NCBI RefSeq assembly: GCF_018977255.1
Contig: NW_024704742.1
Coordinates: 37,326,001-37,390,000 of the forward strand
DNA from: Callorhinchus milii
Taxonomy: Eukaryota
Length of the DNA: 64,000 nucleotides
Direction of reading: 5' to 3'
A program made the position numbers and the translations under genes. A model generated the notes under the pieces. It made no database searches and was not told where the DNA came from. It saw only the letters and a list, made by a program, of their open reading frames with translations. Of this stretch, positions 955 through 43,014 are shown piece after piece. Within the stretch, counting starts at the first letter, position 1, and every line of letters begins with the position of its first letter.

Positions 955-1316
955 CTGAGATCCATATCTCCATCCGTCCAGTAGCTTATCAGGTTTGAAA
1001 CAATTCCTCCAGGGCTAGAACCCATAACCAGAACAGCGATTGCTGAAGTTGGGTTCAGACTAAAAGAAAGTCCTAGGATTATTGCAACGAGAGGCATCAC
1101 CCCAAGCTGACAAGCCATGCCCACAGCGAGAGCCTTAGGTCTCTTCAAGTGAGCCCACAGCTTGTGCAAATCTGTAGTGCAGCCCATGGAAAGCATGATA
1201 AACAGAAGGGCGACAGCAAAAAGCTTCGAAACAATCTTCATCAAGTTCTTATTGAAATCTTCAGAACTGATTGTGCTGTTGCTGCTGACCTCTGAAGTTT
1301 TTGTCAAATTTTCCAT
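955..1316 (-). CDS. SLC10A6: SLC10 family Na+/bile acid or steroid-sulfate cotransporter, coding exon 1 (gene continues off the left edge); best fit SOAT
   Basis: ATG at 1316. Translation MENLTKTSEV...FIMLSMGCT...KLWAHLKRPKALAVGMACQLGVMP...AIAVLVMGSSPGGIVSNLISYWTDGDMDL(S). The exon ends AG|gtgagt (phase 2) at the conserved GDMDLS position. N-glycosylation sequons NLT and NST lie in the N-terminus. The family is certain. KLWxH and SFSLxPxxAIAVLxMG match SOAT better than ASBT as I recall them, and the C4orf36-like neighbour supports SLC10A6. Confidence 0.8.
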
Positions 1317-1789: not shown

Positions 1790-3738
1790 AAATAGGGTTA
1801 ATTTTGTAGGTTTGAGGAAAGATTTAGGTAAAATAGCCTAGAGAATAAGATTAAGAGATAAAAATCTAGACCAACAGTGACAAATATTTAAGGATGTAGT
1901 GCAAAATTCTCAGCGGTCGCATATTCCCTTGCGGAATAAGACTACCACAGGGAAAGCAATTCATCCGTGGCTAACTAGAGCTGTTAGGGAAAGCATCAAA
2001 TTAAAAGAAAAGACTTAAAAAACTGCCAAGAAAAGCAGCAAATCTGAAGATTAGGAGAGTTTTAGAAACCAGCAAAAAAAAACTAAAAAACTCGTTAAGA
2101 GCGAGAAAAAGGAGTATGAGGGTAAGCTAGCTAGGAACATTAAGTCAGATTGTAAAAGTTTTTACAAATACATTAAGAGGAATAGGCTAGTGAGGGTAAA
2201 TGTAGGTCCACTTCAATCAGAGACGGGAGAAGTTGTAATGGGGGATAAGGACATGGCAGAGTCCCTAAATGGGTACTTTGCATCTGTCTTCACCTTAGAA
2301 GTCTGCCAACAATAGAGATGCTCCAAGGGGCTAAGGACAGGGAGCAACTTAGGGAAATTTTCATCAGTAGAGAATAGGTGCTAGGGAAACTGTTAGCACT
2401 AAAAAGTGATCAATCCCCTGGTCCGGATGGCTTGCATCCCAGGGTTTTAAAAGAGGTAGCTTATGAGATAGTGGAGGCCTTATGTCTGATCTTCCAAAAT
2501 TCCTTGGATTCTGGAACAGTCCCCATGGATTGGAAGATCGCAAATGTCACACCACTATTTAAAAAAGGTGGAAAGGAAAAGATGGGGAACTATAAGCCAG
2601 TTAGTCTCACATCAGTGACAGGAAACATTTTAGAATCGTTGGTTAAGGATGTGGTAATGCGCTATTCAGGGAAGCACAATATAATTAGGCCAAGTCAGCA
2701 TGACTTTACAACAGGGAAGTCATGTTTGACAAATCTCATAGAGTTTTTTGAGGATATTTCCAGTAAATTAGATAAGGGTGAATCAGTGGATGTGGTCTAT
2801 TTGGACTTCCAGAAGGCATTCGATAAAGTGCCACATAAAAGGTTAGTCCAAAAGATAAGGACCCAAAAAAATGCAGCGAGACATAGATAGGTTAGGTGAT
2901 TGGGCAGGTAGGTGGCAGATGAAGTATAATGTAGGGAAGTGCAAAGTCATCCACCTAGGTAGCAAAAACAGTAGAGCGGGTTATTTTTTAGAAGGGGAGA
3001 GACTGGAATGTGTTAGCGTCCAGAGGGACTTGGGTGTCCTTGTACACCAATCACAGAAGGTCTGCAGGTGCAGCAGCAATTAGGAAGGCGAACGGTATGT
3101 TAACATTCATTATAAAAGGATTAGAGTATAAGAGTATGGAAGTCTTCTGCAACTGTATAGGGCCCTGGTGAGACCACACCTGGAATACTGTGTGCAGTTT
3201 TGATCTCCTTATTTAAGGAAGGATGTACTTGCCTTGGAGGGGGTGCAGCGTAGATTTACCAGGTTTGTACCAGAGATGAAGGGGATGAGTTACGAGGATA
3301 GGCTACCAATTTGGGCCTATATTCTCTAGAATATAGAAGAATTAGAGGGGATCTTATAGAAACCTATAAGATCATCAAAGGGCATGATAGAGTAGATAGT
3401 GGGAGATTGTTTCCCCTGGTTGGAGAAACTAAAACCAGGGGTCACAACCTTAAAATCAGAGGCCAGCCCTTTCACACTGAGTTGAGGAAGAACTTCTTCA
3501 CTCAAAGGGTGGTGAATGTATGGAACTCACTACCCCAAAGGGCTGTTGACGCTCAGTCCTTGAACATATTCATAGATAGATAGATAGATTTCTTATTGCA
3601 AAATGGATTAAGGGATATGGGGATAAGGCAGGGTTATGGTATTAGCTGGAGTTAGATTAGAAGATCAGCCATGGTTGAATGGCGGGGCAGGCTCGAAGGG
3701 CTGAATGGCCTACTCCTGCTCCTACATGTTATGTTATT
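1790..3738 (+). mobile_element. CR1 LINE, 5'-truncated, ORF2 RT region with an internal deletion near 2865
   Basis: ORFs contain SPGPDGLHPRVLKE, YKPVSLTSV, YLDFQKAFDKVPH and FFTQRVVNVWNSLP. 3' end ggcctactcctgctcct...(tgtta)n. Confidence 0.95.
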
Positions 3739-5374
3739 TTAGGAGCTGTTCAGATTAAACATTCAATGACTCTCCTTCCTTTTTTTCCTCTTTTAAAATG
3801 AACTTTCTCTAATGAAATTTGATATTGATAGTGCAAAACTGCACTAACTTCTGTTGTCCTTGGTTAACCCATATCAGAATAGAGGTTTAGTTTATTTTTC
3901 TTGCACAAGAGAAATGCTTACTAATCCATTTAGAAAAACCTGTGAAGCATTAGCCTGAATGTAGGCAACAATGTTGAAGGAGCTAATAGACAGGTGAGGA
4001 AATTCAAATTATAAATAATCCTTGCTTGCAGTAGAATGCCTTATACATCACAACAACATCTTAAAAGTGTTTCACAACATATACTGTAATATGAAATGAC
4101 TGTGATTTTTTAAGTGAAAGCAGCAGCCAATTTGCACAGCAATGTCCACAATTAGCCATGAAGTGAATGAGTAATTTTTCTGGGGGATTTTTGGCCAAAT
4201 CATTTCTCCATTGGGAGAACCACCCTTCTGCTTTTGAATAGTGCTACGTGAACTTTAACTGAACATGCTCTTGGGACCTTGGTTTGACATCTCATCCAAA
4301 GTGTTAACTAAGATCATCACTATATTTTAATTTTATTTATTTTAAATTAAATTGTTGACTCGGGAATTTGTGAGTTTATGTGGTTTAGGACCCCAAGACA
4401 ATCAAGCTCATATTAACTTTTCAACCTTTATATAGTAATATGCATGATACAGAAAGGTATAAATAGTTACCAATCCAGAGAACAGAATATACCGCTACAG
4501 ATGTTTTCTTTGTGGTATTTTCTTCCTTCTCTCCTTCTAAGATCTTTAGGCTAGATTATACTCTGTATTTATACACAGGAACAAACAAGTTTTCACGACT
4601 TTCAAGTCTATCTAGTTTGGTTCATAGATACTGTTTTCCTCTTTTTATTCCTCAGCTAACAATGACCATCTCATTTGAACATTCTGCAAGGCCACCTAAT
4701 GATCACACACACACTTTGTCTTTCCACATAACAACAACAACAACTCTCAGAGTGCTATATAAATCCAAGTTGTTGTTGTTGTAAATTAACATAATTGTAA
4801 TTAACCCAAACAAATTTGGTTTGCAAGTATTTTAAACCACCCATGATTCCCTGAAAATGTAAGTTAGAAAGAAAAAAGTTACACAGAAGCGTCCTCATTC
4901 CTCTTATAATACCAGGAAATTCCAATGCCAAGCTTCTAATGCCAATAGATTAGCTACAAAGCAAAAGGAAATGATAAGAAGACAGGATGTTACTCAGTTC
5001 ACGGTATTTCTAGTATACTGTACTACATCAACCAGTTAAAATAAACACACAAATGCAGGAAATTCACAGCAGATCAATCATAACATAACACAGGTCACCC
5101 ATTGTACATTATTATTTCCCTATATAACTGTACAAGACAGAGAAAGGATACTAGAAAAGAAATGACAGACCGTATTCATTTCTAGCACGGAAACAAGTTA
5201 CATGAGTACAATCATCAGAAAAACAGCAGAACAAATGTTTAGTAAAGTTCTATTAGAGGCAAAATACATAGGGATGCAACAGTATAACAGTCACTTTACA
5301 AAATGTCATCGATCTATAGTGTTAAAGTGATTACAAATATATGTTCCATGTTGGCAAAGCAGATTTCCATTAGG

Positions 5375-5440
5375 CAGAGTGGTTCTACTGCTGGCCCGTG
5401 GGCCGCATCCGGCCCAGGGGATGATTTCATCCAGCCCACA
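5375..5440 (+). mobile_element. hAT-Charlie-type non-autonomous DNA transposon end
   Basis: cagagtggttct...ggcccgtgggccgcatccggccc matches the Charlie/MER58-type terminal motif; a related copy lies at 32521. Confidence 0.6.
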
Positions 5441-5816
5441 AACCATCTATTACATCATTGTTCAATGAGCGAATATAGGTGACATGCAAGCCTGAGCCAA
5501 TCAGGAGATTGTCCCCGGGACCTTAGGCTCTGCCCGACAATGGGACTGGCAACCAGGATAAAATATTGCTTATGCTTTGGGCCTGACCTCTCTGTTTGGC
5601 TAGCGATATTTCTATCTTTCCTTCTTCAAAAGACACTTTTTTGAACAGTGACAAATAGCCAAAGCAGTTGGCTAGTCAGCAAAAACGACTCCTCAAATTA
5701 ATCTTGAATTTTCCTTATCTATTCTAGACAAGGGCTAGCGACTAGATATCTGTACAAGCTGTTAAGATACGGGCTGTGAGAGTTTAGAAATAAAAAGTGC
5801 TTGTTAAATATGGAAC

Positions 5817-5822
5817 TTTATT
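5817..5822 (-). terminator. Candidate polyadenylation signal (AATAAA) for the C4orf36-like gene
   Basis: tttatt on + at 5817-5822, with a second at 5842-5847, about 360-380 nt past the stop codon. Confidence 0.4.
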
Positions 5823-6204
5823 TTCAAAGAAAATAGTTATATTTATTATACATAGCTAAAAAGACTGATTATTCTTGTTTGTCATCTTGTCCTCCATATC
5901 CCAAATACTACTATAGGTTTCCCTCTATACATCTCAAAATACTGATCAGTTCTCAGACTCTGAGCCTTTTGAAAGCAGACAGTAATTAATAATAATAATC
6001 CTTGCCCTTGAAACAGCGTCTTTCAAATGGTAAGGTTTAGTGCTCCTTCTCTTGTAGTACTGTGATCCACTAAACAACAGGGACTTTCAGAACTGGATAA
6101 AGACACGCAAAAGAAATGTGGGAAACAAAGTTTCAAACTACTTAGCTTCGATTCTGAAAGAACATAATTGGTCAGTCTGTACACGGATGATCATTCTTCA
6201 ATTA

Positions 6205-6410
6205 TTACATGGGAACCTGTCCCTGGTTTACAATCACACTGGAGATGACTGGCATTGTATTGATGATGCTCTGCTTTGACCCTTTTGGTTTTGGACGTCT
6301 TGTTAATGTCTCCACTTCTTCTGGCTCTGGTATTTCAATCCATTGGTTTTTCCAATCCTCAAAAATTTTTCTTAGTCTCACATTTTCAATTTCTGTTTCA
6401 GTTTTAAGAG
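6205..6410 (-). CDS. C4orf36: C4orf36-like gene, last coding exon
   Basis: Acceptor ctatttattttgacag|, phase 1 compatible. (T)LKTETEIENVRLRKIF...LTRRPKPK...QVPM* ends at TAA 6207-6205. Resembles human SIKLEREYEVKRLCKL...LRRPLPSK. The three exons total 426 nt = 141 aa plus stop. Confidence 0.8.
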
Positions 6411-7254
6411 CTGTCAAAATAAATAGATGCTTTGTGTTATTTTTTCCGATTTTTACATAAAGTCAGATTCAAAGTTGAATTACTAAGACTAAGATGTGAG
6501 CCAAAAATCCTCAAATATCCTTTAACATAACTTGAATCAGTTTGAATCTGCAGCCTTCATTCACTATGTCAAGATGAAAATAGAGTTTGTACTCTCTTTC
6601 TGGGTGCAAAACAATTTAGAGCACTGTATAAACATTATTTGAGGTGGCATTATAATGATGAACATGAAATATTACTGTTTTCTGCTGTTCATCTACTGTT
6701 CAACTAATCAACTATTCAACTAATTTAAAACTCCCCCCGCATTCTCACCCACACTAAACTCTGTACCTCCATTACCCAAGTCCTTGTCAAACTCCATTGG
6801 CTCCCTGTCACAGAGCGGATCAGTTTCAAAATCTTCACTATTGTACTTAAATCCCTTCATGGCCTAGCACCCCCCATCTCTCCAACCTGTTCCCTCCCTA
6901 CGCAGTAGCCCATTTGCCCACAGCTGTTTGTGAGACACAGCAATGTCTCATAAACAATCATAAATGAATGAATTTTTACATGAAGAGTCATTGGACGGGA
7001 CACCGAAAGAAATTCCCTTCCCTTTTCAAATGATGCCACAGGACCTATACACTCAATTTATCATCTCATCTGACAAGGTACTCCCCCAGTTGCAGTTTCA
7101 GACTATACTATGTGAGTTCAAAGTTCTAATGTGGGGCTTCATCCCACAACCCAATGACTATGGGGCAAGGGTGCTACCAACTGAATCAGGCTGACACCTG
7201 AGAAGCGTTCACCTAGTTTCAAATTGCTCATCAGTGAAAGATTACTAACCATTG

Positions 7255-7660
7255 AACCTCAGGTTTACCGCTCTTTTTGGCAGTATTATAGGCCTCTTCT
7301 TTTAATTTTATACTTTCCCTTTTATACTACTTTATACTTTCTCTGGTTAGCCAAGGTTGAACCACTTTTCCCGTTGTATTTTTATTTTTCAAGAGAATAT
7401 GTGATCGCTGGGAATTATGTATTATATCTTTAAATGTTTGCCATTGCTGGTCTGCCATCATATTTTTTAATCTAATTTCCCAGTCTATTTTAGCCAAATC
7501 TTCTCTCATACTTGCAAAGTTGGCTTTATTTAAATTTAAGACCCTTGCTTCGGATTCAACTATATCACTCTCTAACTTAATGTTAAATTCCATCATGTTA
7601 TGGTCACTCTGCCATAAAGGAGCCTTAACTTCCAGATTGCTGATTAGCCCTAATTCATTA
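7255..7660 (-). mobile_element. CR1 ORF2 fragment (endonuclease end and linker)
   Basis: ORF 7327..7671 has SDHNMMEF and LNLNKANF...IDWEIRL, homologous to 25210-25575. Confidence 0.85.
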
Positions 7661-7662
7661 CA

Positions 7663-8045
7663 AAACAACAACGACTTGGATTTATATAGCGCCCTCCACG
7701 CCGCATGGCATCTCAGAGCGCTTCACAGTAATGGATCCCGGGGCCGAGCCAGGGGGAGGGGGGGGAAGGTGACCAAAGGCGCTGTCAAAAAGAAAGGTCT
7801 TCAGCAGAGACCTGAAAATAGGAAGAGAGGGGACGAGGCGAAGGGAGTGAGGAAGGGAGTTCCAGAGCCTCGGGGAGTAGTGGCTGAAGTCACAGCCAAC
7901 GATGGTGGAGTAGAGGATTCGGGGGACAAGGAGGAGGCCAGACCCAGTGGAGCAAAGGCAACGGGCACTGTTGTGAGGAGAGAGGAGGTCAGAGAGGTTG
8001 GGAGGTGCAGAGGAGTGGACGACAAGAGTGAGGATCTTGAAGTCG
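7663..8045 (-). mobile_element. L2 LINE 3' end (same subfamily as 40330)
   Basis: DFKILTL...PRLWNSLP...FRSLLKTFLF, followed by a (GTT)n tail. Confidence 0.9.
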
Positions 8046-8348
8046 AATACTACACAAAGTACTTTTGAACATGAATGAAGGAGCAATGAACCAAAAGAAT
8101 CAGATGTAAATGAACCGTCTACCTGTGTTGGTTAAATAAACATAATAATCCTTGCATTTAATGTAGCACCTTATCACATCTTCGAGACATGTCAAAACGC
8201 GTCACAGAATATACTGTAAAGTGAATTCACTGTATATTTTGTGCGCCAAATGTAAAATTAAAATAAAGAGGGCATTAAAGACATTTAAAGTTTAAATAGG
8301 ATCAAGAACAACTTAAAAAGGTATTTTCAAATACAATATGTCACATAC

Positions 8349-8506
8349 TTTCCAAAGAAATCTTGGATGCTTCTACCCTTTTCACCCGATTGAGAATAAC
8401 TCTATCGAAAAACTCTATTTCAGCTAAAAGTGGTGACACTTTTGCTCTGGACTTTCTTTCCTTCTTCGAATTGTAGGTCAGATTTGCCAATTTCCAAGGA
8501 TTTTCA
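8349..8506 (-). CDS. C4orf36: C4orf36-like gene, second coding exon
   Basis: Acceptor tttattttgtttgtag|, donor A|gtatgt. 158 nt open in the incoming phase: (F)ENPWKLANLTYNSKKERKSRAKVSPLLAEIEFFDRVILNRVKRVEASKISLE. ENPWKLANL and PLLAEIEF resemble human EPWDIALL and PFLEEISF (from memory). Confidence 0.8.
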
Positions 8507-9305
8507 CTACAAACAAAATAAACAGATTAAATATTTTCTTCAGTCAGCTCTAAGCCAGGGTTATTCACCTTATGTTTCACAATCCTCTCCATGTTTTACC
8601 ACAAATTAGGAAAGTAGGAAAAGACACACAATGGAAAGTTGCTAATGGCTTTCAGAGGAAATTACTTTTGTGAAGCAGGATGTTTTTAGTTTTTGCACAT
8701 ATGATTTTTAAATAATAAGGAGCTGGGAATGCTTGATATTGTGTTCCATTCTCATGCCCTGACCACATGATGCCAATATTGTACCAACCATGGTCCCAGT
8801 TGGCATCATCTAACACTGCACACTAGGGATCAAACTTGGGACCTTCTGGGTCTGTATGGTTCAGATTCATTTGGTAACATTGTGGGGCCATGAAAGCAAG
8901 AATAGATTTTCACCCAGTCAGCCTGAGAATCTTAAACCCAGGTAACTGAGGCGAAATCATAACACATGCCACAAAAGTCTCCAACAATGGCCTCCTTCTG
9001 TGCTGTATAATTCTATGATTCTGCACGAATACGATTATGTATGTTTTCAAAAGAAACCAAGCATTTAATATAACAGGAGTAAAGTCAGAAACTGAATTTA
9101 TTTCAGAAACAGTTTGATTGTATAATGGAAAGATGGTAGAGTGGGTATTCTGTAAGGACAAGATCAAATGGGCCGAAGAGACTTCTTCATCTGAGTTCCT
9201 TTGATTTTGTGACCTACAGAACTCAGTTATTTCTTACCCTCTATTTATTTACAGATGAGGTTCATAACATTATTAATCTATGTGGTTGCGTGCTTAATCA
9301 TTTTT

Positions 9306-9676
9306 GTGAAGTCCTGTAGCTCAGTGGTTAGAGCACTCGCCTTGCAAGTGAGAGACTTGGGTTCAATTTCTGGCAGGGCGAAATGTTGGGCAAGTTTCCT
9401 TACTCTACACCCCTCTGTTTACCTAGCAGCAAGTCGGAACCCAGTTGTTAGTTGAGTGGCAGATCGCTTTTCCGATTATAATCCTTCAACAAAAAACAAT
9501 AATAATTTGGCCACTTAATCTACGACTGTTTGTGGGACACTGCTGTGCGAAATTGGCTGCCTCGTTTCGCCCACAAATATACAGTCAATTCACTTTACAG
9601 TATATTCTGTGAAGCACTTTGAATCTCTAGAAGACATGAGAAGCGCCGTATCAAATGCAAGGGTTATTATTATTAT
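9306..9676 (+). mobile_element. tRNA-Ala-derived SINE with L2 tail, long variant (in C4orf36 intron)
   Basis: Head gtcctgtagctcagtggttagagc...TGC...ggttcaatt (Pol III A and B boxes), then ttgggcaagt, body, and L2-type tail with (TTA)n. Confidence 0.9.
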
Positions 9677-10262
9677 AGGAACAGTGATCATTTTTGTGTT
9701 TTAACAGCAACTACTTTGCCACATTAATGCACCTCCACACTTTGAAATCAAATTAAGTATTGCTTTTTGTGTTACATGTGGTTTACTACCCTCTACTTAT
9801 TTAGTTAATATTAATAAAGTTAATATTCCATGTAATTGCGTGCTTATTCATTTTTTACATTTAGCTAACCAAAAATGAAGGCCAAACATTTATTGGAATA
9901 CAACTCTGGAGCAAGAATCTAATCCTTATTTTTGAAACAATTAATAAAGAATAGGGACAGGGAGCAACCACCTAAAATAAAGTTAGGAGTTCAACGTTAT
10001 TATAGGTTCTCAGAATAAATGTTAATAAAAGGAACACCTCATTGAATTTTCATGAAGAAAAGCCATAATTCAGATCGCACCTTAGTTACAACAACTGAAA
10101 CACAGAGTGAAGAAATTCCTTAAGTTTGATATAATCATGTTTGACCATGCTTCATCCTTTCTAAAAAAATTACTGAATTGTCTATTGAAGCACACGTGCT
10201 TTTATTCATATCAGCTTTTCACGTTGGAATGACATGTCAAAGCGTTTTACAGGATATACAGT

Positions 10263-11007
10263 CATCATGATACTTTTATATCTTTTCTTTATGTGTGAAT
10301 TACACGCTCCTTTCAGGATCCAAAAGAACAATCCTTCACTGCACATTTTTTCCAAGATACGTGCCCAGTCAGAGCAATCTCACAAACTACTCACAACACT
10401 TTATTTCTCTTAAATTATTCTTATTTATTCAAACAAGTATCATTAACAATAACTTTCCTGAATGCGATACAACACAAAAACAAAAATATAACACATAAGC
10501 AATACATTAACAATACTTTAACAGTATTAACTTGAGCAAACTTGAATAAATCATACAATCTTATACTTTACTAACTACTGAACTAATATTCAGGACACCA
10601 AGACCTCTTGGGAAACACAGAAGAGATGATTGTATCAGTTGTAATCTCTTCTGGGAAGGTTTCAGAATTGGAATAATCTGACATGTGTTAGTGTTGGTGT
10701 TCGTACATCTCCAACCCTTACTCACATCCCGGAATTTAGCTCCCTTCCTTATAACCCAATTTTGTCCATGTGACTGGTCCATCCACTCAGTCCTTCACAC
10801 CCCTTGAGACCCATGGTACCAAGTGTCAAAGGAGTATCTATCCCTCAGTTGACAGTAACTGGAACCCATCGTTGTGAACGCTGATTCATCTCATGATCAG
10901 CAGTGTCTTTTTTATTTCAAGTCTTCTTTACAATCTTTTTAACTTTAATTGTTGTTTTAACCTTTATCCCCCTCTTGCAACACTAACTCCCATATTATAT
11001 CATCTCA
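10263..11007 (-). mobile_element. ~740-bp LTR-like insertion interrupting a SINE (in C4orf36 intron)
   Basis: SINE sequence stops at ~10262 and resumes at ~11008. The insert has minus-strand TATAAG (~10748-10753) and AATAAA (10400-10405). No clean TSD found. Confidence 0.35.
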
Positions 11008-11350
11008 CACTGTGAAATACAGTGACTTTCTGCATTTTTTGCGAGCGAACGTCAATTTGCCAGCAGCAATGTCCACACAAACAGCCAAGAAACAAATGAC
11101 CAATTTTATCTGCGGGGTTGTTAGCCAGGACACTTTGAGAAACTCCATTGTCTTTTCAAATATCCCATGGGATCTTCAACACCCACCTCAACATACAAAT
11201 GTTTAACATTGGACCTTAGTTTAACATGTCATCTGAAAGACGGCACTTCCAATGATGAAACACCCTCCCAGGACTGCATTGGAGTGTCAGCTTAGATTCC
11301 AAGTCCTAACATGGGGCTTGAGCCCACAACTTTCTGACTCAGAGGCAAGA
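11008..11350 (-). mobile_element. Deu-domain SINE (SacSINE1/AmnSINE1-related)
   Basis: Reverse complement reads ctctgagtcagaaagttgtgggctcaagcccc...gtgccgtctttcagatgacatgttaaac...aagatcccatgg...gtgtcctggc (Deu core as recalled). Confidence 0.75.
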
Positions 11351-11443
11351 ATTATCTTGAGGATTTTCCTGAGGATTTTCTGAAAAGATGCACATAAATG
11401 CCCAAGTAAATTTAACGGTCAAATACAAAAAATCGTTACTTAC

Positions 11444-11505
11444 AATTTGAAAGACTTATTTGTGACTTTCGATTCTAGAGGCCTCGTAATGAATGAATAT
11501 TCCAT
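11444..11505 (-). CDS. C4orf36: C4orf36-like gene, first coding exon (MEYSFITRPLESKVTNKSFK)
   Basis: Exon 11556-11444, acceptor ctttgccttttgaaaag|, donor TT|gtaagt. ATG at 11505; 62 coding nt, phase 2. Confidence 0.75.
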
Positions 11506-13189
11506 AATGTCGACACAGAGATAAATCCAGTTCGGTTTCTGGCTTTCTCGAGTCACCTTTTCAAAAGGCAAAGATCAGTAATTCTGTAGTTCACTAATGC
11601 AATAGCAATAACCAATAGGATTTATTAAAGAAAAGGGTCTTTAATCCCTACGTTTAGAAACAAAAGGGATTATTCACACAGCTAAAGACTTTCATTTAAT
11701 TACATTTCAATTTAATAAATAATAATGTAGTAACTTGGATCGATAACGATTAATCAAGTACTTCTGCTCAAGAATTTACATCTCTAAAAAGAAAAAAAAG
11801 TATGTTTTTAGAACACTGAATGTTACCCTGTCAAAAAAGCACAAAAAAAAGCATTAAAAAAATCCTACACACGCGTGAACACAGTAAAATCTTGAAAAGA
11901 GCTCTGAGATGTTTCAACAATGTTAAAACAATCGAAGAATAATGAAATAATAACAATCTTTGCATTTGATATAGTACCTTTCAGTTGGGAAGATGTTTCA
12001 AACCATTTTGCAGGACTTACTGTAAAGTATAGTGATGAGTATTTGTGGCCAAACACAGCACCAATGTACACACAGCAATCATCTACAAACAGCAATGAAG
12101 TGAATGATCAACTTTATCTGAGGAATTGATGGCCAGGCAGGGGGTATCATGATTTTCAGCTTCGTACAGGTGTAATTTTTAAAATAATCTTTCCACATAT
12201 CATTCAGACTTTACACATGCAGTGTAACGATAATCAATGAGGGAAATTAAGCAAAATAAAACAAAATATCAGAGGCCTGAAATTACAAGCAGTCTTAAGG
12301 TATAGGTATATTTTCTCTTAAAATTTAAGATGGAACAGGATTGTGGAAAATTCTTAAATCCAGTTTTAATTTGGAAGTTGTCTGTAGTTCCTAACACAAA
12401 CTGGCTTCCAAACTAATACTGAAGTGAAAAATTTGCCATAATTCTACACAATCTTAACTTTTAAATTTAAATTTTAACTAAAACTAGGTGGAATGTCGAG
12501 CCTTTTATTAATAATTGCAAAAGGTTAATTCTAACCAAGACCTACGCAAAGGATGCTATAAAAATGTAAGCAGTTGCTGTTGTAACAGCCTGATACTGTA
12601 TTTGACAAAAATCATTCATTATAATGGAAGTTAATAATTATACACAGATGTCTCGAGGAATAATTGTTAGAATTTCCATTTCAAATACTTTCAGAGCTTC
12701 AACTGTGTTTGCAAAGAATTTGTACAAAACGAATTGTAATAGCAGCTCATTCATGGAATTTCCCTGATGTTCACTGAATGTCCTTGATTCCAGCTGAGAC
12801 TTTCATTATTAGAATTTCAGTGTAAAAGAGACCGAGGTCTAGAAAAGTGCAGGAAACTGCACTCTCTGAACAATAAACAAACGTTTGAGACGTGGTCGCT
12901 GAAACTTAATACAGTAATAATAATCCTTGCATTTGATATAGCACATTATCACGTTATCAAGACGTCTCAAAGCACTTCACAGGTCAATAATAATCCTTGC
13001 ATTTAAAATAGCACATTATCAAATATTCAAGATGTCTCAAAACACTTCACAGAATATACTGTAAAGTGAATTGACTGTATATTTTGTGGCGAAGCGTGGC
13101 AGCCAACATTTCACCCTGCCGGGAATTGAACCCAGGTCTCTCACTTGTGAGGCAAATGGTCCTGAGCTATGACTATGTTTGACTATGTT

Positions 13190-13530
13190 TTGTTTTGTGA
13201 GCAAAACGTGGCAACCAGTTGCGCACAACAATCTCCCACAAAGAGCAATGGACTGAGCGACCAATTTTATTTGGGAGATTGTTGGACAGGACACGGGAGA
13301 AACTTCCTCTCTTTTCGAATTGTGCCCTGGGATCTTTAACATCCACCTGAACAGGCAGATGGGACCTTGGTTTAACATCTCATCTGAAGGGTGGCACCTC
13401 CGACAATGAAACACCTCCCCGCGCTGCATTGGAGTGTCACCTTAAACCGTGTGATTCCAAATCCAAACCTGGAGTTTGAATCCACAAACTTCTGACTCAG
13501 AGGCGGGAATGCTACCACTGCGCCAGACAC
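13190..13530 (-). mobile_element. Deu-domain SINE with tRNA-like head
   Basis: Reverse complement tggcgcagtggtagcattcccgcctctgagtcagaag...tgtcggaggtgccacccttcagatgagatgttaaacc...caggtggatgttaaagatccca. Confidence 0.8.
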
Positions 13531-13554
13531 ACAGCCTCCACCTGCTGCTTTTTT

Positions 13555-13650
13555 CCTATGTTCCTATCAATCCAAAAGGTCTGCAATTGACACCATTAAT
13601 AAAGCTTAATGGTGTCAATTGCAGACCTTATGGATTGATAGGAACATGGG
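13555..13650. repeat. Near-perfect inverted repeat (45-bp arms, 6-nt loop)
   Basis: 13555-13599 versus 13606-13650: 43/45 complementary by hand count. Confidence 0.95.
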
Positions 13651-14139
13651 TAAACAGCTATAGGACAAGATCATTCATCAAGTCTGTTTCACCAATTTAT
13701 TGGATTTTGGCAGCTCTTTTCATCCCAGTGCCCTGCATTTTAGCCATCCCTCTTATTATCGGACGCTGAGATGGATGTGCACCTGATCAGCCTTTCTCTT
13801 CATAGAATCACTGAAATAAGTTTGTCAAGTAAACCATTCGACCTACTACATCTGCGCTGTTTTATATCCATATAAAATAAATGACATAGTCCGAATTGTT
13901 TTTGCCTTCAAATTCCTCTTTTAAAAGAATAAACTATGTTGAGAATCTCCTCTTTTCAAATAATGCTATAGGATGTTCAACATCAACCTGAACAGACATC
14001 CTTCAGCACATCACACAGATGGTTTAACATCTAACCACACAGCTTTCTCCGCAATCCTACAACGTGGGACTTGAACCACGAACCTTCCCAGTGTAAGGTG
14101 TTAAAAAAAATGTTTTAATCAGTCCCTGTTTAAAACATA

Positions 14140-14370
14140 GTTTTAGTTGGTTAGATTCCAGCAGTTTCTCAATGCACACCCTGGATTCCCCAAGCCTTGA
14201 CTCTTGCCACCCTGCTCGTAATACTTTCTGGAATTATGGTGGTACGTTGCAACGCTCTAGGGAGTGAGTGGATTCTATTCCAATAAATATCTCTTGAATT
14301 ACTGGAAGATAGGATGGAATATATGAACTCTCAGTGTGGTTTGAATACTCTTAAGCATTCACAGCTTTCA
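14140..14370 (+). repeat. Unclassified dispersed repeat, copy 2 of 4
   Basis: Aligns by eye with 32040-32330, 34150-34435 and the reverse complement of 1-90 (ggttagat/ctccagcagt...taatactttctggaatt...agggagtgagtg). Confidence 0.75.
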
Positions 14371-15329
14371 CAACAAAGTAATTTTCCAGTAACCCATCAA
14401 AGCCACTACACAAACCAGAGTACAAAGCACATCTTGTAATGAATAATAATATAAAATTGACCAGGGAAATGATTAAGAGGCTGTCATCTCCAAATTAAAA
14501 TAACATTTATTTATAATACGTCTGAGAGTAAGCATGGCTCAGGCCAAAAAGAATGATTTCCGTAAGAAAAAAGGCATTTTAACCGAACAAGCAAAGGTTT
14601 TCTCATCACCAATTTTCTCCTCTCTGAAAGATGTTCAACTCCTTTGTTCTTGTACCTGGGTACCAGACAACCTCTTGTACTTCACCCAAATGATCATTAT
14701 TCCGGTGTTAGCCCTGACAGTGAGAATTATGGTAAGGGACTCATGGATCTGTTTTCCTCAGGAAAGCTGCAGCTAGGAACAGTGAAAGCATGTTTACAGA
14801 ACACAAAATTTCAACATGATTGTTGGTAAGACATTGTTCTTGATTACCATGGATGTTGAACCTGTGATATTCAGACTTGTTTAAAACAAACTGCTGGAAT
14901 CTTGAAAAAGGTTGTCAACTTTTGGATATTGGTACCAGAAGATGATTGACTAAAAATATGTTTTTGTGGAGCTGGATGCCAGATGTCTTTATGATGTTAA
15001 TGAGTCTCAACAAAAGAAGAACTAAGTTTTAGAAATGGAGTATCTAACCGCAAATAATTTCGAGGAGGGATATACTGCAATCAACATGCTGATTCCTCAT
15101 CAAAACCATTGTATTTGTCTGACCAATTCCATGTAGTGAACATTATTAACCTGTTGTTAGCATTTGATTTGATGAAACGTATAACTTTGATATGCATATT
15201 TTTACTAATCTTTTATTAAATTGTACTACTTAAAAAGTAGTACAATTTTAGTACAATATACTTCACCACAGTGTCACAAATTTAATTAACCCTTACACGG
15301 CCACTTAATATTGCAATTTAATACAATGC

Positions 15330-16230
15330 AATATTACATTTGTAAAGCGCCTTTCACTTTCAGAAGGATGTCCCAAGGCGCTGAACAGTCAGGGATTAGG
15401 ACCCGAGCGGGTAGTGGGTGGGGGGGGAATTGGAATCAGGGAGTGTGGAGGGCAGAGAAGGCACGGTCAAAGAGGAGGGTCTTGAGGCATGCTTTGAAGG
15501 AGGCAAGGGAGGGAGCGAGGCGAAGGGAACATGGGATGGAGCTCCAAAGGGTGGGGGCAGAGAAGCTGAAGGCCCGACCGCTAATAGTGCCTGAGGTGCG
15601 GAGGCGCTGACGGAGCCAATCAGGAGAGCCTCGGTCTTGCTGACGTTCAACTGTAGAAAGTTGATTCTCATCCAGGACTTGATGTCTGACAGACTTTCTG
15701 TCAGGATTTCAGTTGTCCTGGAGTCGAGGAGTTGTGTGTCATTCACAATAATACAAGAGATACAATTGTGTGGAAGTTGACACCATGTCTGCGGATGATG
15801 TCACCAAGAGGGAGCATGTACAGTTTGAAAAGGAGAGGACCGAGCCCTGAGGAACACTGCACAAGATGGTGTGGAGCTGGAGGAGAAGCCATTTGTGGAG
15901 ACAAAGTGGAGCCAGTGTGAGAGATAGGATAGAACCTTGAAGGTTGAGGTGAAAGGAGAGGTGGTGGAAGGGGATAGAGCGGTCCACTGTATCATAGGCA
16001 GCAGAAAGGTCGAGGAGGACGAGGAGACAAAGGGAGCCCTCGTCACAGGCGGACAGAATATCATCTGTCACTTTGACCAGGATGCTGTGGGCATCACGGA
16101 AACCCGAATGGAGGGGTTCATAAAGGGAGTGGCATGAGAGGAAGGAGGGAAGCTGGGAAGCAACAACCTTGCACAGGAAAGGGAGGTTGGAGATAGGGCA
16201 GTAGTTAGTGAGCAGGGATGGGTCCTGGGA
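15330..16230 (-). mobile_element. L2 LINE fragment with internal deletions
   Basis: [31 protein letters not shown], and an L2 tail. Confidence 0.9.
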
Positions 16231-17844
16231 AGGTTATTTTAGTATAGGTCTTAATAAGGGCTTAATAATCCTAATAATACTTTCACTATGGAAGGACATC
16301 TCAGCAATTCACAGGATTTCACTGTAAAGTGTAGTGATTATTTTGTAGGCAAACTTAATTGGCTGCCGCATATGGCCCACAAAATATACAGTCAATTCAG
16401 CTATAGATATGAGCAGCAATTGGAGATGTTGGGTCTATTTTCATTAGAGCAGAGAATGCTGAAAGCGATCCTGATAGAAGCGTCCAAACTATTAAGGGTT
16501 TTAATAGAGGGAAGCAAATTCTACCATTAGAGGAGTCAGCTGACTAGGTGCCATAGTTATGATAGTCACAGAAAAGTGAAATAACAACTTAGGTAAAATC
16601 TTTTCACTCATAAAAGAAACGTATATATATACATATGTATTATACATACATACACCCACACTTACTTTGGGAGTACTACTAACTTTTTAGGTTAATGGAA
16701 AGTACACAAGTGGAATCACTGACCTCTCTCCTCCCGGACATGTGGTCAATTCCACCCAGGATTGATATTAATATTAAAAATAACAATAATCCTTGCATTT
16801 GATATAGCACCTTATCATGTCATTGAGATGTCTCAAAGTGATAAGAGAATATACTGTAAAGTGTAGTGACTGTGTATTTTGATATATATTATATATCATG
16901 TGTATTTTGATATATGTACATAATTTTAAAAAAATTGGTTATTCAATCCACGACTGTTTGTGAGACACTGCTGTACCCAATTGACTGCCGCATTTTTCCC
17001 ACCAAATATAGTCAATTCACTTTACAGTATATTCTGTGAAGTGCTTTGAGACGTCTCGAAGACATGATAAGGTGCTGTATCAAATGCAAGAATTATCATA
17101 TATATATAAATTGTGATGGGCTGGAACTCGCTTGACTGCTCACTAGTCAATGCTTCTATCTTTTATCTCAACATTTCTAATGATTTACTAATCTTGCAAA
17201 CTCTTTCATCGCAGAAGGGCCTGCTCTCATCAATCCTGAGTTAAATTAGATTAAATCAGCATTGTTCGGCATTTAAGACAAATCTCCAAGTCAAAACGTA
17301 TGACACTAAGGATTGAGAAATACTGCAGAAATGACATCAAAGTTTATAAATTTTTAGGATCAGTTACAACCTGACACCAACAATGAAAGAAACTACATTT
17401 CAATCTTAAATGTTTCCATCAAATATCCGTGTTTAACTTGCGTCTCCGTTTTTCTAAGCAAAAATACACACATTGTACTTAAAGCAGCAATTTACTCCTA
17501 TTTTTTCCTTAAACGTCCTCCCAGAGGTGAGCATTTCTGGAGAGGTTAGTGATCAGGCGTCAACAGCTAAGAGAACAAGAAACACAGCGGATCCTTTTCT
17601 CAGAATCCAAGTCAAATTGCCAGCTATTTTTGTGAGAAAGGAAATTTCCAAAGTTGATGTGGAAATCCCAAACTGCAAACAATGGCTGTGTGGTTGACTG
17701 CCACATGGAACATACAATTCCACTAGGAGAGGATCCTGGAAGCAAAATTATTTAAGTAACGCCCAGCCCGAACAAAACAGAGGGGAATCACAATATTGTC
17801 CATTGATAGAGCAAGCTGCCAGAGAGAGAAAACACGCTTATGAT

Positions 17845-18960
17845 GTATGGCTTCTCCTCCAGCCCCCGCACTGTCACATCTGGCGCCCTCCAGGGCTCTG
17901 TCCTTGGCCCTCCCCTCTTTAATATCTACATGCTCCCCCTTGGTGACATCATCCGCCGACATGGGGTCAACTTTCATATGTATACGGATGACACCCAACT
18001 CTACCTTTCTGCCTCCACCGTCAACTCCAGGACCACTGCTGTCCTGACAGACTGTCTGTCGGACATCAAGTCCTGAATGAGGGCAAATTTCCTACAGTTG
18101 AATGTGAACAAGACTGAGGCCCTCCTGATTGGTTCGCGCCAGCGCCTCAGCACCTCAGGCTCTGGCAGCATCAACCTCCATGGTTGCACACTACAACTCA
18201 CCAGCCAGTCAGGAGCCTGGGTGTCTTGTTCGACCCTCAACTGTCTTTTCTCCCCCACATTCAAGCCATGACCCGCTCTGCCTTCCCTCACCTCCATAAG
18301 ATCACCCGACTCCGCCACTACCTCACCCCTCAGGCCACTGAAACTCTTGTTCATGCCTTCATCACCTCCAGGCTCGACTATGCAAATGCCCTGTTTGTTG
18401 GCCTTCCCAACTCCTCCCTCCACAGACTGCAGATAATCCAGAACTCGGCAGCCCGTGTCCTCATCCGCAACAAACTCTGTGACTCCATCTCCCCCATTCT
18501 CGCCCGACTCCATTGGCTCCCTATCCTTCAGAGGATCCAGTTCAAGATCCTGGTCCTCGCATACAAATCCCTCCATGGCCTCACCCCACCCTACCTCTGC
18601 GATCTCCTAACCCCCTACCAACCCGCCCGCTCCCTCCGCTCAGCCGGCTCTGGCCTGCTCCACGTCCCCCAACCCACCTGCCCCACCATTGGCGGGAGAG
18701 CCTTCAGCCACTCTGCCCCCAACCTCTGGAATTCCATTCCCCCAATCACTCCGCCTCACCCCCTCCTCAGCCTCCTTCAAGTCCCACCTCAAGACCCTCC
18801 TCTTCAACCATCCCATTGGCCACCCCTCTTCCCCTCCCCTCTCTTCTCCCCCCCTGAGTCCAGCTCGGGTCTGAATTGCTGTACTCTATCCTGCGCCTTG
18901 AGACGTCCTCCCGACGTGAAAGGTGCTGTACAAATGTAACCTTGTTGTTGTTGTTGCTGT
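17845..18960 (+). mobile_element. L2 LINE, 5'-truncated (RT C-terminal half plus 3' UTR)
   Basis: [35 protein letters not shown], and a (TTG)n tail; frameshifted. Confidence 0.95.
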
Positions 18961-34435: not shown

Positions 34436-34874
34436 TGAAAAGCTAAACCTTTGGTCAATTTTAATCAGGTCCAACATCAGACAAACTGAGAACAAACTAC
34501 ATTGGGGTAATAATAATAATAATAATCCTTGTATTTGATATAGTGCTTTTCACGTTTTCGAGACGTCTCAAAGGATTTCACCGAATATACTGTAAAGTGA
34601 ATTAATTGACTGTATATTTTGTGGACGAAACGCGGCAGCCAATTGTGCACAGCAGCGTCCCACAAGCGACCGATTTATTATTATTATTATTATGCAGGGG
34701 ACATGAGACTCGTAGTTGAGGTTCTTTTGAACTAAGTAAAATAACATACACACACACTCTCCCACACACACAAGTCAGCACAGCATAGCGTATCCTTGGA
34801 AACATGAGTGATTAAATACATCTGATGCCCTCCCTCCCCCACTCGCCCGAGAGGTACTGTGCCAGGCCACTTAC

Positions 34875-35196
34875 CAGCAACACAACCGTACAACACAGTG
34901 AGAGGCACCAGGCACGGCGGCAGCGGCCAGCTCTCCCCAGCATTGCTCTCAGACCAGCTCAGCCCTGAACACAACAGCTCGGCTTCAGCAGGAATTGTTT
35001 CAGTATAAACTTCTCTGCCCTGCCTGCCCCGCCTTGCCTCATTCACTCACTCACTCATTGGAGCTGGGGAGAGAATTGGTTGCTCTGGGTTTGAAGGAGG
35101 ACGAATGTCTTTTGATTTCCGGATTCACAGCAGAGCAGAGACTCTGGGTTGAGCTCCACAGCCAGCTCAGCCTTGACACCTGGATTCAGGTTCCAG
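34875..35196. promoter_or_regulatory. Promoter-like GC-rich island with candidate first exons on both strands
   Basis: Minus strand: two CCAAT boxes (35056-35060, 35075-35079), GC box GGCGGGGC (35026-35033), and donor CTG|gtaagt at 34875/34874. Plus strand: TATAAA at 35004-35009, Inr-like CTCATTC near 35038-35044, and donor CAG|gtgcgc after 35196. Several CpGs are retained. Confidence 0.5.
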
Positions 35197-35280
35197 GTGC
35201 GCACTTCCAGATTCAGAATGTCTGCCCTGGGTTCGGAATTGTGGTTCCACATCTGTAATGTTTATATAGCATGTTAATGT

Positions 35281-35465
35281 AGATCCCGGAATACTCCAGA
35301 TCCCGAGATACTCCAGATCCCGAGATACTCCAGATCCCAAGATACTCCAGATCCCGAGATACTCCAGATCCCAAGATACTCCAGATCCCAGGATATACCA
35401 AATCCCAAGATACTCTAGATTCTGGGCTACTCTAGATTTCAGGGCTGTTCTAGATTTCGGGATCC
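35281..35465. repeat. 17-bp minisatellite (AGATCCCRAGATACTCC), about 8 good and 3 degenerate units
   Basis: Units start at 35281, 35298, 35315, 35332, 35349, 35366, 35383 and 35400, and decay rightwards. Confidence 0.95.
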
Positions 35466-36126
35466 TGTGTTCGGAGTTATAATGATAATAAAATAATAAT
35501 AATCCTTGCATTTGATATAGCGCCTTATCACGTCTTAAGGATGTCTCAAAGCGCGTCACAAAATTTTTACTGTAAAATGAAGCGACTGTATAGTTTGAGG
35601 ACAAAATGCTGCAGCCAATTGCGCACAGCAATAATAATAGAAAGGAAATTCAACTCGGGCTTGAAAAATTTATCCCATCGGAGTTTGTGAGTGTGCAGAG
35701 CAGGTGTGCTGCTGGTCCTGTCATACACATCTCATACATTGCAGGGTTTGTGGGGTTTGTGCCCCTGTGTTGCAGGTTTGGGTCTCTAGACTTTGCTATT
35801 CCAGGTTAGGAATCCTGGATTCATTGTGTGCTCCATATTCTGATTCGTGCATTATCTGGGTTTGAGAATGGGAATGAATTTAGATTCTGAATTTGGGTTA
35901 GGAGTTCATTTCCAGAACATGGACTAATTATCGTGAAAACAACAACTTGTATTGTTTAGTGAATTGACTGTATATTTTGCAGACGAAACGCAGCAGCCAA
36001 TTACGCCCAGCAGTGTCCCACAAACAGTCATTCGAAGGAGGAGGCTTCATTTCATGTCATCCACCGGTGGGCAAGCTTTTAACCATTCTGCCCCACTCTC
36101 TGAATCTCCTGTAGACCCTCCACCTC

Positions 36127-40329: not shown

Positions 40330-41700
40330 ACAACAACAACTTGGATTTATATAGCACCCTCCACGCCGGACAGCATCTCAGAGAGCTTCACAGTAATGGA
40401 TCCCGGGGCCGAGCCAGTGGGAAGGGGAGGAAGATGATCAAAGGTGCGGTCGAAAAGAAAGGTCTTCATCCAAGAGCTGAAAATAGAAAGAGAGGGAGCG
40501 AGGTGAAGGGAGTAAGGAAGGGAATTCCAGAGCCTCGGGGCAAAGTGGCTGAAAGCACGGCCGCCGAGGGTGGAGCGGAGGACTCGGGGGACAAGGAGGA
40601 GGCCAGATCCGGTGGAACGAAGGCAACGGGCACTGTTTTGAGGAGAGAGGAGGTCAGAGAGATAGGGGGGTGCAGAGGAGTGGAGGGATTTGAAGACAAG
40701 GGTGAGGATCTTGAAGTTGATCCTCTCTGGGACAGGGAGCCAGTGCAGTTTGGCAAGGACTGGGGCAATCGGGGAGCCGCGTCTGGTGCGGGTGAGAACG
40801 CGGGCGGCAGGTTTTTGTATAATCTGGATTTTATGGATGGTAGTGGAGGGGAGACCGGTGAGGAGGGCGATTGAATAGTCCAGCTGAGAGGTGACAAATG
40901 CATGTACCAGGGTTTCAGCAGCTTTTGGAGGGAGGTATTGGCGAAGATGGGCGATGCGTCGGTGGTGGAAGAAAGCGGTGCTGGTAAGGGACCAGATGTG
41001 GGGGAGGAAGGATAATTGGGAGTCGAACCTGACGCTTAGGTTGCATACGGGTTTGGAGAGTTTTAGTGGGAGGTCGGGTAGGTGGAGGAGGTGAGAACCA
41101 TGAGATTTTAGACGTTGACGAGAGCCAAAGAGTATGGCTTTCGTCTTGTCAATGTTCAGCTGAAGGAAATTTGCACTCAGCCAGCCCCTGAGGTCTGACA
41201 GGCAGGCTGACAGAACATTAGGGGACTGGGGGTCGTAAAGAGAGGTGGAAAAATAGAGTTGGGTGTTGTTCGCGTACATGCGGAAGTGTACCCCATGTCT
41301 GCGGATGACATCCCCAAGAGGGAGCATGTAGATCAGAAAGAGGAGGGAGCCAAGGATGGATTCTTGGGATACCCCGCAGGTAACTGGGTGAGAGCGGGAG
41401 GAGAAGCTGTTTGTGCAGATGTACTGCTGGCAGTTTGTGAGGTAGGACTCGAACCAGGTGAGTGCAGTCCCACTGAGGTGGATGACGGAGGAAAGGCGGT
41501 GGAGGAGGATGGCGTGATCGACTGTGTCGAACGCGGCGGAGAGGTCCAGGAGGACAAGGAGACAGAGGGAGCCCTGGTCACAGATAAAGAGGATGTCGTT
41601 TGTGACTTTCACAAGCGCAGTCTCTGTACTGTGGGCAGGGCGGAAACCGGACTGGAGGGGTTCGAAAAGGGAGTGTGAGGAGAGGAGTGTGCGGAGTTGA
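40330..41700 (-). mobile_element. L2 LINE, whole RT domain in one open frame but catalytically mutated
   Basis: ORF 40347..41813: QSGFRPAHSTETAL, LDLSAAFDTVDH, YANN in place of YADD, and SQES in place of PQGS. Confidence 0.95.
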
Positions 41701-43014
41701 GATTTGACTGCCTCCACCTCCCTCCCTCCCTCCCCAGTAATTGCATGTGAAGTGTTTTGAGACATTACAATTGATAAGCTGCCATAAAATTGTAAGTTCT
41801 TCCCATATTTCAATGGCTAATGCTTCTAATTATAACTGGGAACAGCTGTTGCCATTGATCTTAAATGTCTTAGAAAGTTCCAGTGTGCATTGGTCTAATG
41901 CTTTGGTCAAATGCACATGTGAGCTGAGCAGAGGTTTGCTTCTCCTGTAGGTCTGTTTCATTTTAGCAAATCCATTCCCAAACGTCTGCTTTTTAGGCAC
42001 ATCGAGGGACCTAATTTGTGATATTTCTTAACAGGAGAATTTGATAATTATTAATAAGGGATCTGAGTCACAAATGGGAGACTCCTTCCAGTAAACAGAA
42101 GTACATGACTCCAATCAACAGGAATCCTGCTTCAATAGAATTTAATACCAGAGCAGGGTTCCTGAGGGTCAGTGGGAATACTAATAAGATTTCATATTAT
42201 GGAATAATCTTAAGAAATACCACAAGTCAGATCCCTAAATATGGATGAACCAGAACTGCTTAGAAGGTCGCTACAACAACAACAACTTGCATTTTTTTTG
42301 GTCCCTTCTCCCTGAGTGCTTGACAGTGACAGATTCTGACACTAAGGCATGGGAGAAGGAAGGGCCGGGTGATCATCAGCTTGATCAAAAAGGAAGGTCT
42401 TTAGGCAATTCTCAGCTGCACAAACTGCTGACACATTTGTGACGTTCTGACATAGGACATCGACAAGAATATGTAAAATCACCAGTTACTGTCTAATCCA
42501 TTTCAATCTGAATTTCACATGCTCAGCTGAATGGCCTGAAAGGAATACAGCATAGGTTACACAGAAAGCTGAAACAAGCAATTCAGCCCAAATACTCCAT
42601 GCTGGATTTATACTCTGTTCAAATATAAGTATTATTATCATTCATAAAAGCAGTTAAGTGTTGAAATACAATTTAGTGTCACATTTTGAGTCTCCGAGAG
42701 TGGGCCATGTTTTGAAAACTAGGTAGAATTGTCAAGGAATAATCTAGAGGCAGTGGATATTCAGAGCATTGCGTTTCTAATGATTTATAATGTGTTTTTG
42801 GCATCATGATTAACATAAATTACCCTATAAATTCAAAATATTTTGACACAGTGAGAAGCCCATGACCATGTATAATGGGTTACAAAGCAAACTGGCTGCC
42901 AGGAAAAGACAGGCTCACTTTCTTTATGATGAGATGGAAAATTAAACTCATCTCTGTTTGCTTTTCGCTCTTGCTTCACTGCTGGGCCACCTTCAATCTT
43001 GTTACCTATTTAGG

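What the first reader, a model, noticed from the sequence alone, without database searches (positions are those of the whole stretch)
6205..11556. Hidden three-exon gene: a C4orf36-like protein in a probable cartilaginous fish
Seen: three minus-strand exons with canonical GT-AG sites and matching phases (2, then 1) splice into an intact 141-aa ORF: MEYSFITRPLESKVTNKSFKFENPWKLANLTYNSKKERKSRAKVSPLLAEIEFFDRVILNRVKRVEASKISLETLKTETEIENVRLRKIFEDWKNQWIEIPEPEEVETLTRRPKPKGSKQSIINTMPVISSVIVNQGQVPM. The ORF track shows only the last exon. Knowledge (recalled): human C4orf36 is a small protein of unknown function next to SLC10A6, with motifs EPW.(I)A.L, P(F)L.EI.F, KLE.E.E..RL.K and RRP.P.K in this order. 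Inference: this is a deeply diverged orthologue. It would date the gene to the jawed-vertebrate ancestor and pick out the few invariant residues. It also has a C-terminal extension of roughly 20 aa.
Basis: partly seen in the sequence, partly recalled or inferred. Interest (0 to 1): 0.7.

Follow-up and report, generated by a model that had tools for sequence, protein, structure and literature searches.

The report
Unannotated elephant shark gene, probable C4orf36
A small spliced gene that protein databases have missed sits next to SLC10A6 in the elephant shark; it is probably the counterpart of the human testis gene C4orf36, which would make a gene once dated to placental mammals as old as jawed vertebrates.

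Summary
The gene is real. Three minus-strand exons joined by GT-AG introns give a 141-aa ORF. Both junctions appear at the exact bases in contigs of 2 of 3 probable-RNA runs, from two studies. They were not listed in the DNA-like run. The window is Callorhinchus milii: the exon 4.9 kb downstream is its SLC10A6, on the same strand. Cattle and marsupials have the order SLC10A6-C4orf36-AFF1. The protein was not found in the protein collections searched, so it looks unannotated.

The C4orf36 identity was not shown by any tool. Exon peptides hit no relevant Pfam family, the spliced protein could not be searched whole, and AFF1 was not seen in the window. Identity rests on one-sided synteny, gene shape and recalled motifs (about 0.8). 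The likely role is a small, basic, helical, non-enzymatic partner-binding protein of male germ cells; this is inferred, and the mouse knockout is fertile. A 2010 dataset dates human C4orf36 to the eutherian branch, so orthology would push it back about 300 million years.

The parts
11444..11571 (-). First detected exon: 5' UTR (66 nt in the X2 contig) plus 62 coding nt; ATG at 11505-11503; phase-2 donor GTAAGT. The true 5' end is open; the AG at 11558-11557 may be an acceptor for a further non-coding exon
   Evidence: (X2 to 11571; X1 to 11560 with 2 loose letters)
8507..11443 (-). Intron 1, 2937 nt, GT..AG
   Evidence: joint 8506/11444 in X1 and X2
8349..8506 (-). Internal coding exon, 158 nt (residues about 22-73); carries PW..A.L and P.L.EI.F; predicted helices
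6411..8348 (-). Intron 2, 1938 nt, GT..AG, 55% repeated within the window
6205..6410 (-). Coding part of the last exon, 206 nt with stop TAA; a helix (K.E.E.E..RL.K), then RRP.P and an uncharged 20-aa tail
4500..6204 (-). 3' UTR, at least 1.7 kb, running past the edge of the stretch laid; AATAAA at 5847, 5822, 4649, 4341, 4337 and 3896
   Evidence: (X1 records 1-2, X2 record 9)
955..1316 (-). Neighbour: first coding exon of SLC10A6 (same strand, 4889 nt below the stop); the synteny anchor
   Evidence: PF01758 E 3e-22; 80 of 80 residues identical to XP_007895130.1 and 119 of 120 to UniRef A0A4W3H953 of C. milii

Best explanation
This is an expressed, spliced, protein-coding gene of Callorhinchus milii (shown, except translation) and most likely the orthologue of human C4orf36 / mouse 1700016H13Rik (inferred). 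It has diverged too far for exon-sized queries to detect the relationship. The product is a 16.6-kDa, basic (pI 9.7), soluble protein with no membrane segment and no Cys or His. It is probably a non-enzymatic partner-binding protein. A long central helix with two amphipathic faces (residues about 54-66 and 85-97) and short motifs in flexible arms (PW..A.L and RRP.P) would clamp it onto a larger complex in meiotic or post-meiotic male germ cells, such as a sperm-tail or spermatid structure, as an accessory and not an essential part. Odds by step: gene structure 0.98, coding 0.93, C4orf36 orthology about 0.8, germ-cell adaptor role given orthology about 0.55.
For: Exact junctions in two studies. 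First ATG in good context, and ORF length reached in 2 of 2000 shuffles. 0 listed variants in the 426-nt CDS against 12 in 1449 nt of 3' UTR (P about 0.045; about 0.10 with only the 9 sites seen in X1 or X2; 4 rows of that table not shown). The exons lie outside repeats. The neighbour is SLC10A6 on the same strand. The mammalian order is PTPN13-SLC10A6-C4orf36-AFF1 (PMC3370893 Table 6; bioRxiv 10.1101/2025.03.27.645633). C. milii has extensive synteny with tetrapods, including the nearby Sparcl1 locus (PMC3964593). Mouse knockout guides target exons 2 and 4 (PMC12961275 Fig. S1 legend), which fits three coding exons after a non-coding one (my inference). Human and mouse genes are testis/germ-cell enriched. 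Single-sequence models give helices 14-23 and 25-51 in the exon-2 peptide and 4-22 in the exon-3 peptide, with a low-confidence tail. The motif order and intron phases of the human protein are recalled and come from no call.
Against: No tool returned any homologue: Pfam (only DUF7892 at E 0.03-0.09, far below its cut-off), 0 of 37 and 0 of 17 candidates, 0 hits among 1.84 billion proteins, no Atlas hit. No shark or ray relative appeared, although 11 such species gave SLC10A6-like hits. Only one flank of the synteny is seen: 7 recalled AFF1 patterns found no AFF1-like match in the window. The tissue is unknown. The mouse knockout has normal litters (8.8 +/- 2.0 against 9.1 +/- 2.8), so no essential role is known. 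The helix models are single-sequence with pTM 0.32 and 0.51.
Confidence: 0.72

Rival explanations
1. A real protein-coding gene specific to chimaeras or cartilaginous fishes that arose independently and merely sits in the same interval as C4orf36.
For: No database or profile hit of any kind; AFF1 not found in the window; imperfect motif fit.
Against: Same neighbour and strand, small size and three coding exons, as recalled or inferred for C4orf36; four recalled motifs in the same order. The searches used 20-67-aa pieces against very large libraries, where about 25% identity would not be significant.
Confidence: 0.14
2. A spliced long non-coding RNA whose 141-codon frame is accidental.
For: No homologue found, no proteomic evidence, not in the protein collections that hold other C. 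milii models; the 3' UTR is long.
Against: The ORF starts at the first ATG, crosses two junctions in frame and is matched by 2 of 2000 shuffles; listed variants avoid the CDS, weakly.
Confidence: 0.05
3. C4orf36 orthologue, but acting in the nucleus or on RNA (basic patches KKERK and RRPKPK as import or nucleic-acid-binding signals) and not as a structural adaptor.
For: pI 9.7; 12 K/R in the exon-2 peptide and 5 in residues 105-121.
Against: No known nucleic-acid-binding domain; the central helix is acidic in part (8 D/E in residues 74-104); basic composition is common in sperm-tail proteins too (own knowledge).
Confidence: 0.07
4. The exons are 5' non-coding or read-through exons of SLC10A6, or the joined contigs come from a processed copy elsewhere.
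For: Same strand, 4.9 kb apart. X1 record 1 runs about 790 nt past 4500, and the SLC10A6 exon was outside the stretch laid. Some X8 joints were not counted.
Against: The last exon continues unspliced for at least 1.9 kb past several AATAAA sites; SLC10A6 has its own ATG at 1316 shared with shark orthologues; the X2 contig differs at only 5 of 1943 letters; no joint is listed in X8.
Confidence: 0.02

Closest known systems
Human C4orf36 (ENSG00000163633; mouse 1700016H13Rik; Pfam label DUF4522 is recalled, not from a call)
   Same: Lies next to SLC10A6. Small protein of unknown function. Probably three coding exons (inferred). Recalled: same strand as SLC10A6, intron phases 2 then 1, and four short motifs in the same order.
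   Different: Identity is too low for exon-sized searches to detect. About 24 aa longer than the recalled 117 aa, with an uncharged C-terminal tail. No Cys. AFF1 not seen within 52 kb upstream. Tissue not established.
SLC10A6/SOAT of C. milii (XP_007895130.1), the neighbour
   Same: Same strand and locus; serves as the synteny anchor.
   Different: Unrelated protein (PF01758 transporter); a separate gene.

Membership tests
C4orf36 orthologous group | Significant match to the family profile | tested here: inconclusive
   Only exon pieces of 20-67 aa could be scanned; no relevant Pfam hit. HMMER filters hide matches above about E 0.1. The whole spliced protein was not searched.
C4orf36 orthologous group | Located directly upstream of SLC10A6 | tested here: met
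   SLC10A6 exon 1 at 955-1316 on the same strand; mammalian order. Only LINE-type repeat ORFs were seen between the two genes.
C4orf36 orthologous group | AFF1 on the other flank | tested here: inconclusive
   7 recalled short patterns gave no AFF1-like match. In cattle the listed gap is about 130 kb; the window holds only 52 kb upstream.
C4orf36 orthologous group | Shared intron positions and phases | not testable with these tools
   Phases here are 2 then 1. The human phases are recalled only; the mouse gene has at least 4 exons.
C4orf36 orthologous group | Pairwise similarity along the length with conserved motifs in order | not testable with these tools
   No mammalian sequence was returned by any tool. 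The recalled motifs fit in order, three of four imperfectly.
C4orf36 orthologous group | Testis/germ-cell-enriched expression | not testable with these tools
   Runs carry no tissue label and contig depth is a poor measure of expression.
Spliced protein-coding gene | Junction-spanning transcripts and an intact ORF | tested here: met

The most novel reading that the evidence does not exclude
C4orf36, dated to the eutherian branch in a genome-alignment dataset (branch 5 in PMC2950125) and found in the papers searched only for mammals, is a male germ-cell gene of the jawed-vertebrate ancestor. It has kept its place beside SLC10A6, its exon layout and about 20 residues for some 450 million years (recalled date) while escaping annotation in cartilaginous fishes. 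It would be a clean vertebrate case of homology-detection failure among 'young testis genes', and the surviving residues would mark its binding surfaces.
Probability: 0.6. Interest if true: 0.62.

Novelty: new member of a known kind. Interest (0 to 1): 0.5.

Why it matters
Short testis-biased genes are the standard examples of new mammalian genes (PMC5554394 abstract), and C4orf36 was counted as eutherian-born in one such dataset. An intact, spliced counterpart in a chimaera would move its origin from about 130 Myr to the root of jawed vertebrates and show a case where fast divergence was read as youth. It would also raise the question why a gene whose loss leaves mice fertile was kept so long. 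The few residues shared across that distance give the first targets for functional tests. It also adds a gene missing from the C. milii protein sets. Limits: marsupial annotation already contradicts the eutherian date, non-mammalian 'C4orf36 homolog' annotations may exist in databases I could not browse, and no new mechanism is shown.

Tried and rejected
Homology searches with exon peptides: Pfam, the 5.8-billion set for longer proteins only (near-length and shorter proteins were not searched), the 1.84-billion set with the last exon only, PDB sequences (none; two chance-level hits, a designed knot protein at E 0.015 and PH0536 at E 0.53, rejected) and the ESM Atlas. All were blank or chance-level. 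DUF7892 (E 0.03-0.09, 12.7-14.2 bits against a cut-off of 27) was rejected as chance. The whole spliced protein was not searched or folded, which leaves the profile test open. No whole genome is held, so the upstream flank could not be read.

No run was on record as RNA, and only 4 of 13 listed runs were laid. Depth differences between runs were not used as evidence of tissue. X3 showed no listed joint, which is not evidence of absence. A search for an upstream donor following AAAG in unique sequence found none, so the possible non-coding first exon was not located. Seven other non-repeat ORFs in the window had no Pfam hit. No fold search was run, because isolated helices match anything. No complex prediction was run, because there is no candidate partner. 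Prokaryote, phage and metagenome collections were not scanned, as they are not suited to a vertebrate gene.

Earlier scan findings: nothing relevant. Supplements: no C4orf36 entry in the held files of PMC5554394 (1 short file; its gene lists were not in it), PMC9834047 (2 files searched, 1 unreadable) or PMC3964593 (figures not readable). Unseen files may bear on gene age, spermatogenic stage and synteny.
Full report
Observation. Joining 11556-11444, 8506-8349 and 6410-6205 on the minus strand gives two GT..AG introns (2937 and 1938 nt); this is the only one of 81 nearby boundary combinations that does so. Coding lengths are 62, 158 and 206 nt, phases 2 then 1, and the frame runs 141 codons from the ATG at 11505 to a TAA at 6207-6205. 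None of the three exons is repeated within the window, whereas 28% and 55% of the introns are.

Transcript evidence. Thirteen runs were listed, none on record as RNA; four were laid on 4500-18000. Both junctions are listed at the exact bases in X1 (study P1) and X2 (study P2), with CT..AC ends on the plus strand. One X2 contig of 1943 nt covers 4754-6410, 8349-8506 and 11444-11571 with 5 differing letters. X3 covers the last exon only in patches, with one contig stopping at 6410, and has no listed joint. X8 behaves as DNA: its contigs run across the exon borders (5020-6767, 8217-9014, 11323-11974) and it has no listed joint, though the tool warns that not all of its joints were counted. The last exon continues as a 3' UTR to at least 4500, with several AATAAA sites. 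The 5' end is open. X2 reads unspliced to 11571. X1 stops at 11560 with two loose letters, which could be the stub of a further non-coding exon spliced to the AG at 11558-11557. The runs carry no tissue label, so testis expression was not tested.

Coding evidence. The ATG is the first in the contig-defined mRNA and has A at -3 and G at +4. Two of 2000 base shuffles of that 2197-nt mRNA gave an ATG frame of 141 aa or more (median longest 52). Of the variant rows shown, 12 lie in the 1449 nt of 3' UTR covered and none in the 426-nt CDS (P about 0.045; about 0.10 for the 9 sites seen in X1 or X2; 4 rows were not shown). This is weak support for selection on the frame. There is no direct evidence of translation.

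Organism and neighbourhood. The minus-strand exon at 955-1316 matches PF01758 (E 3e-22). It is identical over 80 of 80 residues to C. milii SLC10A6 (XP_007895130.1) and over 119 of 120 to UniRef A0A4W3H953. The other 11 of the 12 hits are shark and ray proteins at 54-62% identity; 10 of them are named SLC10A6-like or SOAT-like and one is a hypothetical protein that UniRef names an ileal bile acid cotransporter. I did not build a tree to test the SLC10A6 label. The gene in question ends 4889 nt upstream of that ATG on the same strand. In cattle the order is PTPN13, SLC10A6, C4orf36, AFF1, KLHL8 (PMC3370893, passages with Table 6), and humans, antechinus and Tasmanian devil share it (bioRxiv 10.1101/2025.03.27.645633, one passage). 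The C. milii genome paper reports extensive synteny with tetrapods, including the Sparcl1 locus (PMC3964593, passages); its supplement text did not name these genes. AFF1 was not found in the window with 7 recalled patterns, and 7 other non-repeat ORFs had no Pfam hit. As the cattle gap is about 130 kb and only 52 kb are available here, this is inconclusive.

Homology tests. These all failed to return a relative. Exon peptides gave no relevant Pfam family. They gave 0 of 37 and 0 of 17 candidates among longer proteins in the 5.8-billion set, 0 hits among 1.84 billion representatives for the last exon, nothing usable in PDB sequences and nothing in the ESM Atlas. First, an identical 141-aa C. 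milii protein would have been within the length range, and the same collection holds the neighbouring SLC10A6 models from NCBI, UniRef and EukProt, so this protein appears unannotated. Second, the link to C4orf36 is not shown by a tool. The queries were 20-67 aa long, the whole protein could not be searched, and no mammalian sequence was returned for comparison. From recall only, the human protein is about 117 aa, has three coding exons with phases 2 then 1, and aligns almost without gaps at roughly a quarter identity. The mouse knockout used guides in exons 2 and 4 (PMC12961275, supplement part 1 of 2), which fits, but does not prove, three coding exons after a non-coding one. I put orthology at about 0.8.

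How it probably works. The protein is 16.6 kDa, pI 9.7, GRAVY -0.62. It has no Cys or His, and no 19-residue window above 0.93 on the Kyte-Doolittle scale, so no membrane or signal segment. The strongest amphipathic stretches are residues 85-97 and 54-66. Single-sequence AlphaFold2 models of the separate exons give helices that would run from the middle of exon 2 into the first third of exon 3, followed by a low-confidence arm with RRP.P and an uncharged tail (pTM 0.32 and 0.51). That shape, with no catalytic signature, points to a partner-binding protein (inference). Human C4orf36 and mouse 1700016H13Rik are testis/germ-cell enriched, and the mouse knockout has normal litter size (8.8 +/- 2.0 against 9.1 +/- 2.8; PMC12961275, passages and section 3.1). 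The most likely role is therefore an accessory adaptor in a spermatocyte, spermatid or sperm-tail complex; a nuclear role through the basic patches is the alternative. No step of this role is shown for the fish protein. A 2025 paper still calls the human protein uncharacterised (PMC12351384, passages). Another lists it only as an unstudied gene near the SCPP cluster (PMC4174742, one passage).

Rivals. An unrelated lineage-specific gene in the same slot (0.14) is favoured by the blank searches and disfavoured by position, strand, size, exon layout and recalled motif order. A non-coding RNA with a chance frame (0.05) is disfavoured by the shuffle test and first-ATG context. Leader exons of SLC10A6 or a processed copy (0.02) are disfavoured by the long unspliced 3' UTR and the DNA run.

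Novelty. ENSG00000163633 is C4orf36. In PMC2950125 Table S1 it is assigned to branch 5 and marked male-biased; the text places branches 5-7 after the eutherian-opossum split, with branch 5 at about 130 Myr (passages). Marsupial annotation already contradicts that date. In the library searched, 'C4orf36' gave 24 papers, none on its phylogeny by title. 'h4orf36' gave 3 papers, all on mammals. 'DUF4522' gave 0, 'Callorhinchus milii'+'SLC10A6' 0 and 'elephant shark'+'SPARCL1'+'AFF1' 0; two synteny searches gave 2 papers each, none on fish by title. I could not browse gene databases, so non-mammalian annotations may exist. Verdict: a real, apparently unannotated, spliced gene; probably a new and very distant member of a known family; interest 0.5, rising to about 0.6 if the whole-protein profile test and intron comparison confirm orthology.

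Noticed in passing
window 955-1316 (-): The RefSeq model XP_007895130.1 of C. milii SLC10A6 starts at the Met at 1196, 40 residues downstream of the in-frame ATG at 1316 that UniRef A0A4W3H953 and the shark orthologues use; the RefSeq model is probably truncated at the N-terminus.
   Followed up: partly
window 6411-8348 and 8507-11443: Both introns are multiples of three long (1938, 2937), so all three exons lie in one genomic frame; expected by chance 1 time in 9.
   Followed up: no
window 11557-11571 (-): Runs X1 and X2 differ at the 5' end (stop at 11560 with 2 loose letters, against unspliced to 11571); possibly alternative first exons. The AG at 11558-11557 has a pyrimidine tract as strong as the two proven acceptors.
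   Followed up: partly
window about 3700-4500 (-): An X1 contig runs about 790 nt past the edge of the stretch laid, so the 3' UTR may end near the AATAAA at 3896, within about 2.6 kb of the SLC10A6 start codon.
   Followed up: no
window 34666-35472: Unique, 50% GC stretch with a TATAAA-like site near 35005 on the plus strand, followed by a short tandem array of about 18-nt units (about 35290-35420); possibly a promoter or first exon. Its ORF has no Pfam hit.
   Followed up: partly
window 2378-2890, 40347-41816 and others: Reverse-transcriptase relics of LINE type (PF00078); 38% of the window is repeated within itself. The CpG-rich windows overlap such repeat ORFs.
   Followed up: partly
window 63280-64000: C/A-rich imperfect tandem repeat (CACACACTCAGCCCCC-like units) running off the end of the window.
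   Followed up: no
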